A DNA stretch of 64,000 nucleotides, taken from the NCBI GenBank assembly GCA_049966795.1, contig JBMFTY010000001.1:14444-78443 (forward strand), in the 5' to 3' direction. Of the stretch, positions 2,608 to 61,510 are shown piece by piece. Made by a program: the position numbers and the translations under genes. Positions within the stretch are counted from its first letter, which is position 1, and each line of letters begins with the position of its first letter. This DNA is from Thermoplasmata archaeon. Its GTDB lineage: Archaea > Thermoplasmatota > Thermoplasmata > Thermoplasmatales > GCA-001856825. Under the pieces are notes generated by a model. It ran no database searches. It had not been told where the DNA came from and saw only the letters and a list, made by a program, of their open reading frames with translations.

Positions 2608-2643
2608 TGCATCAAAATGCATTCTCCATATAAGAATATAGGT

Positions 2644-2766
2644 GGAGACGGCGAACCGCATTTCCCGTGCCCTCGCGGAACACAGTACGCGTGCGGAACG
2701 CGGACGGGCTTAACCTTCGGGTTCGGAATGAGACCGGGTGTTTCCCCGTCGCTATGGCCGTCAACC
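2644..2766 (-). rRNA. rrf: 5S ribosomal RNA (unlinked copy)
   Basis: The minus strand reads GGTTGACGGCCATAGCGACGGGGAAACACCCGGTCTCATTCCGAACCCGAAGGTTAAGCCCGTCCGCGTTCCGCACGCGTACTGTGTTCCGCGAGGGCACGGGAAATGCGGTTCGCCGTCTCC. This holds the canonical 5S blocks (CCATAGC, CCGAACCC, GTTAAGCC, GTACTG, GGGAA) and terminal helix GACGGC/GCCGTC. Ends are +/- a few nt. Confidence 0.85.
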
Positions 2767-15904: not shown

Positions 15905-15979
15905 TGGGCTTGTCCGGATTTGAACCGGAGTCTTCGACTCCCGAAGCCGAAAGGATGGACCAATCTACCCCACAAGCCC
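15905..15979 (-). tRNA. tRNA-Pro (anticodon CGG)
   Basis: Acceptor GGGCTTG/CAAGCCC, T-arm TCCGG-TTCAAAT-CCGGA, anticodon arm TCGGC-TTCGGGA-GTCGA. The D-arm/variable-loop spacing is slightly irregular in my hand fold. Confidence 0.7.
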
Positions 15980-26927: not shown

Positions 26928-27000
26928 GGGCTCGTGGTCTAGCGGCTATGACGTCGCCCTTACAAGGCGGAGACCGCCGGTTCGAATCCGGCCGGGCCCA
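26928..27000 (+). tRNA. tRNA-Val (anticodon TAC)
   Basis: GGGCTCG...CGGGCCCA cloverleaf with anticodon arm TCGCC-CTTACAA-GGCGG and T-loop GGTTCGAATCC. Confidence 0.9.
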
Positions 27001-38976: not shown

Positions 38977-39597
38977 ATGGACGAGATAAGCACCCTTGGT
39001 TATAGCAAGCAGAGGATACTCGAAGAGCTCCTTGCGGGTCCGAAGGGAATACACGAGCTGTCCAGGAAGCTGAACATAAGGAATAATGCGGTAAGGGAGC
39101 ACCTGAGTGCGCTTGAAAGCAGGGGGTATGTGGAATCTCGTTTCGTGAAGACCGGGGTCGGAAGGCCCAGAAAGATCTATCACGTTTCGGCAGAGGGAAT
39201 GAATCTATTTCCGAAGAAATACGATTTTCTCCTCAAGATCCTTCTAGATGAGCTCACGAAGGAAAACGGAATTGAATGGGTCAGGGAATTCCTCAAGAGG
39301 GCCGGACAGAGAATCGCGAATGAAAACCCCGGGAATGCGAATGGCGTTTCAGCACTGTTGAACTTCTACAACAGCCTCGGGTGCATGGCAACCGCCTTCG
39401 AGAGGGATGGTGCTCTGGTGATAAAAAGGAACAACTGCATATATTACTCCCTTGCACTTGACAAGGAGAAGCTGCTTTGCAGCACTTTCGAAGATGCCCT
39501 CATCAAGTCAATGCTCCCATCGTACAAGCTTGTGAAGAAGGATACGGTCACCGCGAACAAGTTCGACTGCGAAATGGTGCTCTCGAAGACACCATAA
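38977..39597 (+). CDS. SufR-like winged-helix regulator with a C-terminal 4-Cys region (COG2345-like)
   Basis: N-terminal wHTH (RILEELLAGPKGIHELSRKLNIRNNAVREHLSALESRGYV...GRPRKIY). The C-terminal cysteines are spaced C-X17-C-X13-C-X29-C. It is divergent from sufC. Confidence 0.55.
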   Translation: MDEISTLGYSKQRILEELLAGPKGIHELSRKLNIRNNAVREHLSALESRGYVESRFVKTGVGRPRKIYHVSAEGMNLFPKKYDFLLKILLDELTKENGIEWVREFLKRAGQRIANENPGNANGVSALLNFYNSLGCMATAFERDGALVIKRNNCIYYSLALDKEKLLCSTFEDALIKSMLPSYKLVKKDTVTANKFDCEMVLSKTP

Positions 39598-39628: not shown

Positions 39629-40675
39629 ATGCTCACCGTCATAGAAACGTTCTATTCACTGGAAGGGGAGGGTCCATACATCGGTATACCAACATTTTTC
39701 ATAAGGCTCTCGGGCTGCAACCTGAGATGCACGTGGACTCCTGCAGAAGATGTTCCCATATTGACAGGCGATTTGACATGGAAGGAGGCAGGGAAGATAA
39801 GGAGGGGCGACATCCTTCTGGGCTTCGCCGGTGGAAGATACATCGCCTCAAGGGTTATAAATACCATTAGGACGAGGTCGGAAACAGTGAGGGTCACTAC
39901 GGAATCCGGGAAGAGCATCGTCGTCACCCCTGAACACCCATTCTATGTTTCCGGCTCAAGGACGATCAGGGCCGACAGGTCAGTGGGAAGGATGATCAGA
40001 GTCCTGAATAGGGACTCCGTAGCGGCCGGGGGGAAACTGTCAGAGGATAAGGAAAGGGTTGTGGGGGTTGAATATACTGGTATCAGAACGATAAACCACT
40101 TCGAGACGGAGACTCACAACTACATTTCAGAATCGTTCATCTCCCACAACTGCGACACGAAGTACTCCTATTCTGGCGGCGAAAAGAGAACGGTGGACAG
40201 CCTAGTGGACGAGGCCAAGCAGTACGGAACCAGGTACATATCAATAACAGGTGGCGAACCTCTGCTCCAGCAAGACGTTTATCCATTGATGCATAAGCTT
40301 CTTGACAATGATTTCTTCGTCATTCTTGAGACCAGCGGTTCAATATCGGTGGAGGACGTTCCGACTGAGGACAACATGATAATTTCGATGGATATCAAAA
40401 CACCCTCGTCAAACATGGTGGAGCATAACCTCTATGAGAACATAGAGCTCCTCGGGAAGAAGGACTATTTGAAGTTCGTGATAGCAGATGAAAAGGATTT
40501 CATCTTCTCCAAATCGATAATTGAGAAATACCCTTTCGAGGGAGAGATAATCTTTCAGCCAGAGGGTGGCAAGAATCTCACATGGTTGGCAGAAAAAGTA
40601 TTAAAGGAAAGATTAAATATCAGAGTATTGCCCCAGCTTCATAAGTTTATTTGGGGGGATAAGCGAGGAGTATGA
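39629..40675 (+). CDS. queE: 7-carboxy-7-deazaguanine synthase QueE (radical SAM), interrupted by a mini-intein
   Basis: The exteins read FYSLEGEGPYIGIPTFFIRLSGCNLRCTW|CDTKYS...ITGGEPLLQ...QLHKFIWGDKRGV. Together they give a contiguous CxxxCxxC QueE once residues 37-174 are removed. Confidence 0.85.
   Translation: MLTVIETFYSLEGEGPYIGIPTFFIRLSGCNLRCTWTPAEDVPILTGDLTWKEAGKIRRGDILLGFAGGRYIASRVINTIRTRSETVRVTTESGKSIVVTPEHPFYVSGSRTIRADRSVGRMIRVLNRDSVAAGGKLSEDKERVVGVEYTGIRTINHFETETHNYISESFISHNCDTKYSYSGGEKRTVDSLVDEAKQYGTRYISITGGEPLLQQDVYPLMHKLLDNDFFVILETSGSISVEDVPTEDNMIISMDIKTPSSNMVEHNLYENIELLGKKDYLKFVIADEKDFIFSKSIIEKYPFEGEIIFQPEGGKNLTWLAEKVLKERLNIRVLPQLHKFIWGDKRGV
39737..40150 (+). mobile_element. 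Mini-intein (138 aa, no homing endonuclease domain) within queE
   Basis: Block A-like TPAEDVPILTGD...GDILL, block B VVTPEHPF, and blocks F/G INHFETETHNYISESFISHN followed by the +1 Cys. Confidence 0.8.
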
Positions 40676-41289
40676 TATCTCAGGAGTACACGGACGAAGA
40701 TGGTGAGATCGCCACAAAGATGGCCAGAAGGGCCATAGAAGAATATATCGACATAAAGCTCGTGATAAAGAACAGTTACGGGGGGAAGTTTGTGGAAAAG
40801 AGGGGTGTATTCACTACCCTCACAACCGTCTCGGGGGAGCTCAGGGGGTGCATAGGTTTTCCTGAACCGGTATATCCGCTGGGTGAAGCCATAATAAGAA
40901 GCGCTATAGCCGCGGCTGTCAACGATCCGAGGTTCCCGCCGGTAACGAAAGCGGAGATGGACAGCATAGTCGTTGAAGTATCGCTCCTCACGAAACCATC
41001 TCTGCTGAACGTGAAGAAAAGGGAGGAGATCCCAAAGTCCATTGTAATCGGAAGGGACGGACTGATAGCGGAGAGGGGCGGTTATTCAGGGCTGCTCCTT
41101 CCTCAGGTGGCGGTCGACGAGAAGATGAGCGCGGTTGAATTTCTGAACTCCGTCTGCTGGAAGGCAGGTATGGAACCCGATTGCTGGAAGGATCCGGAGA
41201 CATCAATCTTCACATTTGGGGCGGAAATATTCTATGAGGTGGAGCCAAGGGGTCCAGTGTTCAGGAAAATCATGAAAGTGGAGAAATAA
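40672..41289 (+). CDS. AMMECR1-domain protein
   Basis: Has GVFTTL...LRGCIGF and DPRFPPV motifs. Confidence 0.85.
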   Translation: MISQEYTDEDGEIATKMARRAIEEYIDIKLVIKNSYGGKFVEKRGVFTTLTTVSGELRGCIGFPEPVYPLGEAIIRSAIAAAVNDPRFPPVTKAEMDSIVVEVSLLTKPSLLNVKKREEIPKSIVIGRDGLIAERGGYSGLLLPQVAVDEKMSAVEFLNSVCWKAGMEPDCWKDPETSIFTFGAEIFYEVEPRGPVFRKIMKVEK

Positions 41290-42509
41290 TGGAAGCGTTT
41301 CGTGGACTGTTTTACGTGGACAGGGAATTCAGGGAAAGGTATGTCCTCGTGGAAGATGGAGTGATAAGGAAGATATCCGTGGATTCGGAAGGTTCGCGTG
41401 TCACCCCTGTTCCCGGTTTCATTCTGCCTGGCGGGGTAGATATGCATGTTCACTTCAGAGATCCGGGAGAGGAAGAGAAGGAGGATTTCAGGAGTGGATC
41501 AATTTCCGCTGCACTTGGAGGGACCACTACCGTTTTTGACATGCCAAACAATAAGATCCCGGTGAAGGATGAGAGAACGTTCAGAGCAAAGAGGGGGATC
41601 GTTTCAGGGAAAAGCTTCGTCGATTTCGGGCTTTATCAGCTTGCCTCGGAGAGCATAGTTGAATCAGCGACGGGTGAAAAGATATTCCTGGGAAAATCCA
41701 CCGGCGGGATAATAACCGATGTTTCCAAATGCAGTTGGTCAGGGAAGGTGAAGGTTGTCCACGCGGAACTTCAGGAATGCCTTGATTCCAACGCAACCAC
41801 TTCGAGAAACTTGGTGGAGCACGACAGGTCGCGGCCAATTGAGTGTGAGCTTTCCGCCATAGAAAAGGTTGCAGAATATTTAAGAGAGAATGTTCACATA
41901 GCCCACGTCACAAGCTCGAGGGGTCTGAGCCTGGCAAGGGCATTCAGGTTCAGCACAGAGGTCACGCCTCACCACCTCCTCCTGAACAACACAATGGATC
42001 TTGGACCATTCGGGAAGGTGAACCCGCCGCTCAGGAAGAAACCGGTACAGGAGGAGTTGCTGAACAGTCTGAATCTCGGAAACGTGGATGTAATCTCCTC
42101 GGATCATGCTCCTCACACCAGGGAGGACAAATCGGTCTTCCAGGACTCTCCATCAGGGGTTCCAGGGGTTGAAACGAGGGTCCCCCTCGTATTGAACCTC
42201 TTTAGGAAGGGTCTGATATCAGGCATAGACAGGGCAGTATCTCTCCTCATGGAGAATCCCGCAAGGATATGCAGGGTCAACAAGGGCTACATAGCGGTAG
42301 GATACGATGCGGATTTCATCTCGGTGGACTTTGACAAATCCAAGAAAATCAAGGGCGAGGAACTGCATTCAAAGGCAGGATGGTCGCCATTCGACGGATA
42401 TGAGGGCATCTTCCCCCAAGAGGTATACCTGCGGGGAGAATTGCTGGCACAGGAAGGGGAGATTGTGGGATCTCAGAGGGGTGTGTTCCTCGATGGGAAG
42501 GCAAAGTGA
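41289..42509 (+). CDS. pyrC: Dihydroorotase-like amidohydrolase
   Basis: Has PGGVDMHVHFRDPG and ISSDHAPH. Confidence 0.8.
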   Translation: MEAFRGLFYVDREFRERYVLVEDGVIRKISVDSEGSRVTPVPGFILPGGVDMHVHFRDPGEEEKEDFRSGSISAALGGTTTVFDMPNNKIPVKDERTFRAKRGIVSGKSFVDFGLYQLASESIVESATGEKIFLGKSTGGIITDVSKCSWSGKVKVVHAELQECLDSNATTSRNLVEHDRSRPIECELSAIEKVAEYLRENVHIAHVTSSRGLSLARAFRFSTEVTPHHLLLNNTMDLGPFGKVNPPLRKKPVQEELLNSLNLGNVDVISSDHAPHTREDKSVFQDSPSGVPGVETRVPLVLNLFRKGLISGIDRAVSLLMENPARICRVNKGYIAVGYDADFISVDFDKSKKIKGEELHSKAGWSPFDGYEGIFPQEVYLRGELLAQEGEIVGSQRGVFLDGKAK

Positions 42510-54750: not shown

Positions 54751-54823
54751 AGCCACCGGAGGGAATCGAACCCCCGACCTGCTGATTACAAATCAGCTGC
54801 TCTTCCGACTGAGCTACGGTGGC
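54751..54823 (-). tRNA. tRNA-Thr (anticodon TGT)
   Basis: GCCACCG...CGGTGGCT cloverleaf with anticodon arm GCTGA-TTTGTAA-TCAGC and T-loop GGTTCGATTCC. Confidence 0.9.
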
Positions 54824-59345: not shown

Positions 59346-59430
59346 CGCCAGGGGGGAGATTTGAACTCCCGAGCTCTTTCGAGCAATAGATCTCGAATCT
59401 ATCGCCTTGGCCGGACTAGGCTACCCTGGC
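59346..59430 (-). tRNA. tRNA-Ser (anticodon CGA), long variable arm
   Basis: GCCAGGG...CCCTGGCG with anticodon arm ATAGA-TTCGAGA-TCTAT, variable arm TGCTCGAAAGAGCTC and T-loop GTTCAAATC. Confidence 0.85.
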
Positions 59431-61438: not shown

Positions 61439-61510
61439 TGGACTGGCGGGGATTTGAACCCCGGACCTCCTGCTTGCAAAGCAGGCGATCTTCCGCTGAT
61501 CTACCAGCCC
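61439..61510 (-). tRNA. tRNA-Ala (anticodon TGC)
   Basis: GGGCTGG...CCAGTCCA with the G3:U70 identity pair, anticodon arm CCTGC-TTTGCAA-GCAGG and T-loop GGTTCAAATCC. Confidence 0.9.

What the first reader, a model, noticed from the sequence alone, without database searches (positions are those of the whole stretch)
39737..40150. Mini-intein splits the radical-SAM CxxxCxxC motif of QueE and appears to begin with Thr
The QueE ORF reads ...RLSGCNLRCTW-[138 aa]-CDTKYSY.... Removing residues 37-174 restores CNLRCTWCDTKY, the [4Fe-4S]-binding CxxxCxxC of 7-carboxy-7-deazaguanine synthase.

The insert has intein blocks: TPAEDVPILTGD...GDILL (A), VVTPEHPF (B), and THNYISESFISHN followed by Cys (F/G plus the +1 nucleophile). 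It has no endonuclease domain.

Two points are unusual. First, the +1 splice nucleophile is itself the third cluster-ligating cysteine, so Fe-S assembly and enzyme activity strictly require prior splicing. Second, the residue at intein position 1 is Thr (ACT at 39737-39739), not the usual Cys, Ser or Ala. That raises the question of how, or whether, the first acyl shift occurs. The gene sits next to the SUF Fe-S assembly operon.
Basis: partly seen in the sequence, partly recalled or inferred. Interest (0 to 1): 0.7.

Follow-up and report, generated by a model that had tools for sequence, protein, structure and literature searches.

The report
QueE mini-intein that starts with threonine
The archaeal tRNA-modification enzyme QueE is interrupted, inside its iron-sulfur-binding motif, by a self-splicing protein element whose first residue is threonine, a residue the intein papers I could search say had not been seen in nature, and that threonine is conserved across a whole clade of hot-spring archaea.

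Summary
ORF 39629-40675 (+) encodes a QueE-type radical-SAM enzyme with a 138-aa insert (39737-40150) between Trp36 and the third Cys of CX3CX2C.

Intein-free orthologues (72-80% identical) read CNLRC[TE]WCDTKY, which fixes both junctions. The insert is a HINT domain: profile hits to solved inteins reach E 1e-10, and an AF2 model (pLDDT 93.7) aligns to mini-inteins with TM up to 0.84. It has block B TPEH and ends in His-Asn followed by Cys.

Position 1 is Thr in all 13 distinct nucleotide alleles from Thermoplasmatota. All four ACN codons occur there, and synonymous sites between lineages are saturated. Every catalytic-block residue is invariant. A second QueE lineage carries a Cys1 intein at the same site.

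Among about 145 related HINT N-termini, none truly starts with Thr. The literature I could search says Thr1 had not been observed naturally (2010) and that only one Ser1/Cys+1 intein was known (2023).

Splitting the rSAM motif just before its third Cys is recurrent, and SUF adjacency is shared by intein-free alleles.

My best reading is a splicing-competent class 1 intein using a Thr1 N-O acyl shift. A class-2-like direct attack by Cys+1 cannot be excluded. This is a new variant of a known kind.

The parts
39629..39736 (+). N-extein of queE (residues 1-36). It holds the first two cluster cysteines, Cys30 (39716-39718, position -7) and Cys34 (39728-39730, position -3), and Trp36 (position -1).
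   Evidence: It aligns colinearly with intein-free QueE orthologues up to ...CNLRC[TE]W.
39737..40150 (+). 138-aa mini-intein (HINT domain) with no Cys and no endonuclease domain.
   Evidence: The boundaries are defined by intein-free alleles.
39737..39742 (+). Block A start: Thr1 (ACT) and Pro2 (CCT).
   Evidence: Thr1-Pro2 is invariant in 13 distinct nucleotide alleles. The codons used are ACT/ACC/ACG/ACA and CCT/CCG/CCA. The register I8-L9-T10 is canonical.
39926..39937 (+). Block B T-P-E-H (Thr B:7 and His B:10), within the invariant VTPEHPFY.
   Evidence: It is invariant in both the Thr1 and the Cys1 QueE inteins.
40091..40126 (+). Block F, I-N-H-F-E-T-E-T-H-N-Y-I. His at 40097-40099 occupies the position that is usually Asp (F:4).
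   Evidence: The HMM alignment to the Pho CDC21 intein places this His on the Asp of VYDLQ. The position is His in 10/10 Thr1-clade inteins and Asn in 5/5 Cys1 QueE inteins. In 79 related HINT domains it is N 56, D 13, H 3.
40142..40150 (+). Block G end: Ser-His-Asn (G:5-G:7). The terminal Asn is the residue that cyclises.
   Evidence: It is invariant, with synonymous codon variation (CAC/CAT, AAC/AAT).
40151..40153 (+). Cys+1. It is the C-extein nucleophile and also the third Cys of the CX3CX2C [4Fe-4S] motif.
40151..40675 (+). C-extein of queE (residues 175-348) plus the stop codon.

Best explanation
The insert is a genuine, vertically inherited, splicing-competent mini-intein in the archaeosine-pathway enzyme QueE of a Thermoplasmatota lineage. 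It sits between the second and third cysteines of the radical-SAM CX3CX2C motif.

I propose the following mechanism; every step in it is inferred.
1. After translation the HINT domain folds and brings both junctions together.
2. Thr1 makes an N-O acyl shift at the Trp(-1)-Thr1 bond. Block B Thr/His assist, and the clade-specific His at block F position 4 probably does too.
3. Cys+1 takes over the N-extein by transesterification.
4. The terminal Asn cyclises and releases the intein.
5. An S-N shift restores CNLRCTW-CDTKY.
6. Only then can the third Cys ligate the [4Fe-4S] cluster.

Shown here: the anatomy, the exact junctions, the HINT fold, conservation of every catalytic-block residue, and purifying selection on Thr1. 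Inferred: that splicing occurs, and that Thr1 rather than Cys+1 is the first nucleophile.
For: Junctions: intein-free orthologues fix them exactly, and the spliced product is a colinear QueE.

HINT identity. The AF2 model has pLDDT 93.7 and aligns to the Npu DnaB intein with TM 0.84 and rmsd 2.0 A.

Conservation: Thr1 is present in all 11 database proteins of the clade and in 5 GTDB species representatives. Across 13 distinct nucleotide alleles all four Thr codons are used. B:7 Thr, B:10 His, F:4 His, G:6 His, G:7 Asn and Cys+1 are each invariant with synonymous variation.

Selection: pS is saturated (0.71-0.94) in every pair. Intein pN is only 0.16-0.35, against 0.05-0.12 for the extein, and there are no frameshifts or stops. 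About 32% of intein positions are invariant, yet all 7 catalytic positions are. As a rough estimate, 0.32^7 is about 3e-4.

Optional-element signature: intein-plus and intein-free alleles interleave in the extein tree, and intein groups match extein groups. One clade member (P0009) retains a degenerate LAGLIDADG-like insert at the usual position.

Chemistry: there is no Cys inside the intein, which excludes a class 3 route. [quoted passage not shown] The GOS TerL Ser1/Cys+1 intein shows that an oxygen-1/Cys+1 pairing works (PMC10189870).
Against: There are no experimental data on splicing.

The NX-motif His that characterises Ser1 oxyester inteins (PMC10189870) is absent or not conserved upstream of block B.

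Transfer from an oxyester to Cys+1 is thermodynamically less favourable than the reverse direction (argument in PMC2807308).

Invariance of Thr1 alone does not prove it is the nucleophile. Ala1 is also described as shared by all class 2 KlbA inteins (PMC4031507).

F:4 is His rather than Asp. Asp is the residue shown to be required in characterised class 1 and class 2 inteins (PMC4031507).
Confidence: 0.55

Rival explanations
1. Class-2-like mechanism. The intein splices, but Thr1 is only a structural placeholder. Cys+1 attacks the Trp(-1)-Thr1 amide directly, as in the Ala1 KlbA inteins, and forms the branched thioester without a linear ester. This would be a second, independent origin of the class 2 route.
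For: Cys+1 is present and invariant. All known class 2 inteins use Cys+1 (PMC4031507). An oxyester-to-thioester transfer is disfavoured (PMC2807308). The Ser1-specific NX histidine is missing. A secondary alcohol is a poorer nucleophile than Ser or Cys (general chemistry, from my own knowledge).
Against: The defining features reported for class 2 inteins are not met: position 1 is Thr rather than Ala, G:6 is His rather than Ser, F:4 is His rather than Asp, and the host is not KlbA (PMC4031507). The review states that class 1 inteins cannot perform the direct attack. Strict retention of a hydroxyl-bearing residue through four synonymous codons, never the isosteric Val or the one-step neighbours Ala or Ser, suggests the OH matters.
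Confidence: 0.25
2. Non-splicing, domesticated HINT insert. The domain stays in the mature enzyme. Because the N- and C-termini of a HINT fold are adjacent, Cys30, Cys34 and Cys175 could still assemble the cluster around the retained domain.
For: Thr1 is a non-standard nucleophile. QueE tolerates extra residues in this loop: Bacteroides-type QueE reads CNLRCTW-TTPDGEISI-CDTPY (L043, L052), and a Cx14CxxC QueE family exists (TIGR04508). Only one clade member shows remnants of a homing endonuclease.
Against: Residues needed for splicing chemistry but not obviously for folding are all invariant at saturating divergence: the terminal Asn, the penultimate His and the block B Thr and His. Closely related lineages function with the precise intein-free allele. 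No non-HINT sequence feature has been gained.
Confidence: 0.1
3. Dead gene or artefact. The queE is a pseudogene disabled by a decayed intein, or the Thr codon is a sequencing or assembly error or a misplaced junction.
For: None beyond the non-canonical first residue.
Against: There are 13 independent assemblies with intact 348-354 aa (or 526 aa) ORFs. Extein pN is 0.05-0.12 against saturated pS. Synteny is conserved. The junction is unambiguous against intein-free alleles.
Confidence: 0.03

Closest known systems
Class 1 (canonical) mini-inteins, e.g. Npu/Ssp DnaB, Npu DnaE and Mtu RecA splicing domains
   Same: HINT fold (TM 0.73-0.84). Block B TxxH, block F H-N-[FY], C-terminal His-Asn and a +1 Cys are all present. 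The element is inserted in a conserved active-site motif of its host. It is about 138 aa with the endonuclease lost.
   Different: Position 1 is Thr rather than Cys or Ser. Position 2 is Pro. F:4 is His rather than Asp. The intein contains no Cys at all.
[quoted passage not shown]
   Same: It pairs an oxygen nucleophile at position 1 with Cys at +1. It also lacks the NX-motif histidine of Ser1/Ser+1(Thr+1) inteins.
   Different: It has Ser rather than Thr. It is a split phage terminase intein, not a contiguous archaeal QueE intein. I made no sequence comparison with it.
Class 2 Mja KlbA inteins (Ala1, direct attack by Cys+1)
   Same: Archaeal mini-intein with Cys+1, a non-Cys/Ser first residue and a block B T-x-x-H-P-x-Y. 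Mja KlbA (2jmz) is a profile hit at E 2.6e-8.
   Different: KlbA inteins have Ala1, Ser at G:6 and Asp at F:4, and all are KlbA orthologues (PMC4031507). Here these are Thr1, His G:6 and His F:4, and the host is QueE.
Cys1 inteins inserted at CxxxCxx|C of radical-SAM enzymes: the Cys1 QueE intein clade (P0025, P0026, P0047-49), L074, at least 14 other rSAM clusters, NCBIfam NF038136, and probably the P. abyssi MoaA intein
   Same: The insertion point is identical, immediately before the third cluster Cys, which serves as the +1 nucleophile. The TPEHP block B is shared with the Cys1 QueE inteins. The Pab MoaA intein has a native Cys-3/Cys1 disulfide that controls splicing (PMC3922620), which is consistent with the same site, although I did not verify its insertion point.
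   Different: All of these have Cys1, so the precursor keeps a pseudo-CX3CX2C and a CxxC redox pair. With Thr1 neither is possible. The Thr1 inteins are only 21-28% identical to the Cys1 QueE inteins.

Membership tests
Intein (HINT superfamily) | HINT (Hedgehog/intein) fold | tested here: met
   The AF2 model has pLDDT 93.7 and pTM 0.86. The Foldseek top 50 are all HINT domains, the best being the Npu DnaB intein at TM 0.84 and rmsd 2.0 A. The profile search of the PDB gives 40 HINT hits.
Intein (HINT superfamily) | In-frame insertion in a conserved host protein, with intein-free homologues that define precise junctions | tested here: met
   P0013-P0024 read CNLRC[TE]WCDTKY. The spliced product is colinear with QueE models.
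Intein (HINT superfamily) | C-terminal His-Asn followed by Cys/Ser/Thr at +1 | tested here: met
   S-H-N|C is invariant in 13 alleles.
Intein (HINT superfamily) | Block B Thr (B:7) and His (B:10) | tested here: met
   VTPEHPFY is invariant.
Intein (HINT superfamily) | Demonstrated protein splicing (excision plus extein ligation) | not testable with these tools
   Only indirect evidence is available: purifying selection on the catalytic residues.
Class 1 inteins | N-terminal nucleophile at position 1 (Cys or Ser in all described natural members; Thr allowed by Perler's definition) | tested here: inconclusive
   Position 1 is Thr. The definition 'Ser1, Thr1 or Cys1' appears in PMC5222942, but 'Thr1 has not been observed' appears in PMC2807308. 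Whether Thr1 acts as the nucleophile is untested.
Class 1 oxyester (Ser1) inteins | NX motif [RK]-His upstream of block B | tested here: not met
   There is no conserved His upstream of TPEH. The window intein has none, and some relatives have a non-conserved His near position 34. The motif is described in PMC10189870.
Class 2 (KlbA-type) inteins | Ala1, Ser at G:6, Asp at F:4, Cys+1, KlbA host | tested here: not met
   Here the values are Thr1, His G:6, His F:4 and a QueE host. Only Cys+1 is shared (the criteria come from PMC4031507).
Class 3 inteins | WCT triplet: Trp B:12, Cys F:4, Thr G:5 | tested here: not met
   B:12 is Phe, F:4 is His and G:5 is Ser. There is no Cys in the intein.
Bacterial intein-like (BIL) domains | No +1 nucleophile; found in variable, non-conserved host proteins | tested here: not met
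   Cys+1 is present and the insert lies in the catalytic motif of a conserved enzyme.
QueE, 7-carboxy-7-deazaguanine synthase (radical SAM) | CX3CX2C cluster motif and full-length match to QueE family models | tested here: inconclusive
   After in-silico splicing the motif is restored. The top four NCBIfam hits are all QueE models. TIGR04349 matches residues 3-209 to profile 2-209/210 at E 1.2e-64, but its 217.9 bits is below the curated cutoff of 300. Sources name the orthologues QueE. The Cys1 allele sits next to queC.
LAGLIDADG homing endonuclease domain | Two LAGLIDADG motifs with acidic catalytic residues, nested in the intein | tested here: not met
   It is absent from the window intein (138 aa). 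Homologue P0009 has a 178-aa insert with WLAGVIDGT and YVAGMIDSSGS. Both lack the acidic residue. Pfam gives no hit, and there is a weak I-MsoI hit at E 0.034.

The most novel reading that the evidence does not exclude
This clade would be the first natural family of inteins that initiates splicing with a threonine hydroxyl, or else a second independent invention of direct Cys+1 attack.

On this reading the Cys1-to-Thr1 replacement, together with Pro2 and a His at F:4, was selected because of the insertion site. An intein Cys1 at this site recreates a pseudo-CX3CX2C and a Cys-3/Cys1 CxxC pair in the precursor. Those can be trapped by Fe-S insertion or by disulfide formation. Thr1 would then uncouple splicing from redox and iron status in these acidophilic hot-spring archaea.
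Probability: 0.2. Interest if true: 0.8.

Novelty: new variant of a known kind. Interest (0 to 1): 0.6.

Why it matters
Intein papers list Thr1 as chemically possible but, in the literature I could search, never as observed in nature. That literature also describes an oxygen nucleophile at position 1 paired with Cys+1 as known from a single split intein.

This finding supplies at least 13 diverged natural sequences with Thr1/Cys+1. It also supplies matched Cys1 inteins at the same site and intein-free alleles. Together these form a ready-made comparative set for three questions:
- How is a secondary alcohol activated for the N-O shift?
- Has the class 2 route arisen more than once?
- Which co-variations (Pro2, His at F:4, loss of all intein cysteines) accompany the change?

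The intein body contains no cysteine and comes from thermoacidophile-related archaea, so it may also interest protein engineers.

Biologically, it bears on how an intein placed inside an Fe-S ligand motif interacts with cluster assembly and redox state.

Tried and rejected
- An intein-only word-index search and a profile search returned almost nothing useful and did not even recover P0001-P0010. I drew no conclusion from them.
- The metagenome scan was swamped by the GCNLRC[TAS]W pattern of intein-free QueE. It yielded only one further intein-containing QueE (L074, Cys1).
- The first AF2 run, on a 10-sequence alignment with extein flanks, gave pLDDT 53 and I discarded it. A 38-sequence alignment fixed this.
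- Five apparent Thr1 hits among related inteins (P0126, P0153, P0156, P0234, P0239) were alignment mis-registers. A Cys precedes TPAE in each, so they are Cys1 inteins.
- A class 3 mechanism is rejected: there is no WCT triplet and no Cys in the intein.
- Alternative junctions are rejected. For example, an intein starting at Cys34 would yield CNLR-CDTKY, which lacks a cluster Cys and does not match the intein-free alleles.
- A functional link to SUF is rejected. The synteny is shared by the intein-free L010 and absent from the Cys1 L011.
- Literature searches using T1A/T1C/T1S and 'QueE' as a word-start term returned noise.
- No model coordinates were available, so I could not measure distances from Thr1, His F:4 or Cys+1 to the scissile bond.

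Full report
**Observation**

The + strand ORF 39629..40675 encodes 348 aa. The sequence reads ...RLSGCNLRCTW / TPAEDVPILTGD...THNYISESFISHN / CDTKYSY.... Codon 37 is ACT (39737-39739, Thr). Codon 174 is AAC (40148-40150, Asn). Codon 175 is TGC (Cys).

Pfam and NCBIfam see a split radical-SAM/QueE match on both sides of residues 37-174 and intein models inside it. TIGR01445 is above its cutoff, and PF14890 gives E 1.9e-5.

**Junctions**

A search of 5.8 billion protein clusters and the resulting alignment gave three groups.
- Ten proteins at 64-84% identity carry the same insert. All read W|TP... ...SHN|CDT.
- Twelve or more 210-aa proteins at 72-80% identity over the exteins have no insert and read CNLRC[TE]WCDTKY.
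- Five proteins at about 40% identity carry a HINT insert at the identical site, but it begins with Cys (SW|CLPGD...THN|CDT).

The intein-free alleles fix both junctions. No shifted junction gives the same product. The in-silico spliced 210-aa protein matches QueE models colinearly in one stretch (TIGR04349 E 1.2e-64). That score is below the curated cutoff, so the QueE assignment rests on family-level similarity and source annotations.

**The insert is a HINT domain**

- The 139-aa query found 311 proteins at E<=1e-3 among 1.84 billion representatives. All those I inspected are inteins or HINT repeats.
- A profile of 15 QueE inteins hit 40 PDB sequences at E<0.01. All are inteins, BIL domains or hedgehog, led by the Pho CDC21 intein at 1.4e-10.
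- An AF2 model built on a 38-sequence alignment reached pLDDT 93.7 and pTM 0.86.
- Its 50 best Foldseek matches in the PDB are all HINT domains. The Npu DnaB intein gives TM 0.84 and rmsd 2.0 A.
- The window contains no other intein.

**Thr1 is real and selected**

I retrieved the DNA of clade members and five GTDB species representatives, all Thermoplasmatales/Thermoplasmatota MAGs, several from the DRTY series. This gave 13 distinct nucleotide alleles.

Position 1 is Thr in all of them, encoded by ACT (3), ACC (6), ACG (2) and ACA (2). Pro2 is also invariant, with three codons. B:7 Thr, B:10 His, the His at F:4, the block F His of H-N-Y, G:6 His, G:7 Asn and Cys+1 are each invariant with synonymous variation.

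Pairwise pS is saturated (0.71-0.94). Intein pN is 0.16-0.35 and extein pN is 0.05-0.12. The intein has therefore been under purifying selection, weaker than on QueE itself, across lineages whose flanking genes are only 67-84% identical at the nucleotide level.

The register is canonical. Thr1-...-Ile8-Leu9-Thr10-x-Asp12 matches the Cys1-...-[IV]8-L9-[TM]10-x-D12 of related inteins.

**Distribution**

In an extein NJ tree, intein-containing and intein-free alleles interleave within one clade, and intein subgroups mirror extein subgroups. This fits vertical descent with losses, or local homing.

One member (P0009, 526 aa) has a 178-aa insert at the usual endonuclease position. It carries two LAGLIDADG-like motifs that lack the acidic residue. 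Pfam does not detect it, and it gives a weak I-MsoI hit. It is probably a decayed homing endonuclease. On this reading the 138-aa form would be a derived mini-intein.

**How unusual is it?**

I extrapolated about 146 N-termini of the nearest HINT relatives. Of these, 135 are Cys, and a few are Pro, Ala or other residues. The five apparent Thr cases are mis-registers, because a Cys precedes TPAE in each.

The literature I could search says the following.
- Tori et al. [quoted passage not shown]
- Later reviews list 'Ser1, Thr1 or Cys1' as class 1 options without natural examples.
- A whole-word search for 'inteins' plus 'Thr1' found four papers, none describing a natural case.
- Pasch et al. 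[quoted passage not shown] Cys+1'.
- No paper linked inteins with 7-carboxy-7-deazaguanine synthase.

The library is incomplete, so the novelty claim is 'not described in what I could search'.

**What is not unusual**

Insertion immediately before the third cluster Cys of a radical-SAM motif recurs. At least 14 other 50%-identity clusters among the top 149 relatives have CxxxCxx|C-intein, all with Cys1. The Cys1 QueE clade and L074 do too. NCBIfam curates intein-containing rSAM families. The P. abyssi MoaA intein has a native Cys-3/Cys1 disulfide that controls splicing (PMC3922620), which fits the same site, though I did not check its insertion point.

SUF adjacency is real. sufC and sufB score above NCBIfam cutoffs. 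There is a sufD-like gene. A SufR-like HTH gene lies between sufC and queE. However, the intein-free L010 has the same synteny and the Cys1 allele L011 lies beside queC instead. The adjacency is lineage synteny.

**Mechanism**

There is no Cys in the intein and no WCT triplet, so class 3 is excluded. Two routes remain.

The first is class 1. Thr1 performs an N-O acyl shift, Cys+1 transesterifies, Asn138 cyclises, and an S-N shift completes ligation. Points in favour:
- The hydroxyl-bearing residue is strictly retained rather than replaced by Val, Ala or Ser.
- There is precedent in the S1T mutant and in the Ser1/Cys+1 GOS TerL intein.
- G:6 is the class-1-like His.

The second is a class-2-like direct attack by Cys+1. 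Points in favour:
- Cys+1 is present.
- The Ser1-specific NX histidine is absent.
- An oxyester-to-thioester step is energetically unfavourable.

Against the second route, the intein lacks all the features reported for KlbA inteins except Cys+1.

One clade-specific feature may matter. The position that is usually Asp (F:4) is His in 10/10 Thr1 inteins and Asn in the Cys1 QueE inteins. In 79 related domains it is N 56, D 13, H 3. It could act as a general base for Thr1 or for Cys+1. This is an inference.

My weights are class 1 at 0.55, class-2-like at 0.25, a retained non-splicing domain at 0.10, and pseudogene or artefact at about 0.03.

**A possible selective rationale (speculative)**

With Cys1 at this site, the precursor still displays C-x3-C-x2-C (Cys-7, Cys-3, intein Cys1) and a Cys-3/Cys1 CxxC pair. 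Thr1 removes both. That would prevent Fe-S or disulfide trapping of the first nucleophile.

**Verdict**

The Thr1 point is the interesting part. The 'split Fe-S motif' and 'SUF neighbour' points are ordinary. This is a new variant of a known kind: a natural Thr1/Cys+1 intein clade. The mechanistic question is directly testable.

Noticed in passing
L043:2001-2210 and L052:2001-2207 (Bacteroidaceae MAGs): Bacteroides-type QueE reads SGCNLRCTW-TTPDGEISI-CDTPY. A 9-residue non-HINT insert sits at exactly the site where the intein sits. It begins T-T-P-D-G-E, reminiscent of the intein N-terminus TP[AV]G.. . This could be coincidence, a tolerated loop, or a remnant of an intein.
   Followed up: no
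L017, L020, L032, L075, L092; proteins P0121-P0124, P0132, P0145, P0265: The closest non-QueE relatives of this intein are tandem arrays of 3-5 HINT domains joined head to tail as ...VHN-K-G(G)(G)-CFLPDTPIL.... They occur in Planctomycetota, Lentisphaerota and other bacteria. The residue after His-Asn is Lys or Gly, so these domains lack a +1 nucleophile. They are HINT-repeat proteins rather than inteins in enzymes.
   Followed up: partly
window 38977-39597 (+): A 206-aa ArsR-type HTH protein with C-terminal cysteines lies between the divergently transcribed sufCBD operon and queE. Its best NCBIfam hit is cyanobacterial SufR (E 3.5e-11, below the cutoff). It is probably an archaeal SufR-like regulator, and it is conserved in the same position in all related loci.
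   Followed up: partly
P0009 / L008:1548-3128: This is the only clade member with a large (316-aa) version of the intein. The extra 178 aa carry two LAGLIDADG-like motifs (WLAGVIDGT, YVAGMIDSSGS) in which the catalytic acidic residue is replaced. Pfam does not recognise the region. It looks like a decaying homing endonuclease.
   Followed up: partly
P0139, P0170 (representative-search hits): Some radical-SAM proteins carry an intein one cysteine earlier in the motif (..CNLA|CFVAGT..), so that the second cluster Cys position is the junction. P0170 holds three inteins. Both cluster-ligand cysteines can therefore serve as intein insertion points.
   Followed up: no
window 2643-2765 (-), 15905-15979 (-), 26928-27000 (+), 54751-54823 (-), 59346-59430 (-), 61439-61510 (-): The window holds a 5S rRNA gene and five tRNA genes (Rfam gathering threshold). 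These are ordinary and I note them only for orientation.
   Followed up: no
window 40672-41289 (+) and 41289-42509 (+): queE overlaps an AMMECR1-family gene by 4 nt (ATGA). That gene abuts a dihydroorotase-family gene. This three-gene arrangement is conserved in all Thr1-clade and intein-free loci.
   Followed up: no
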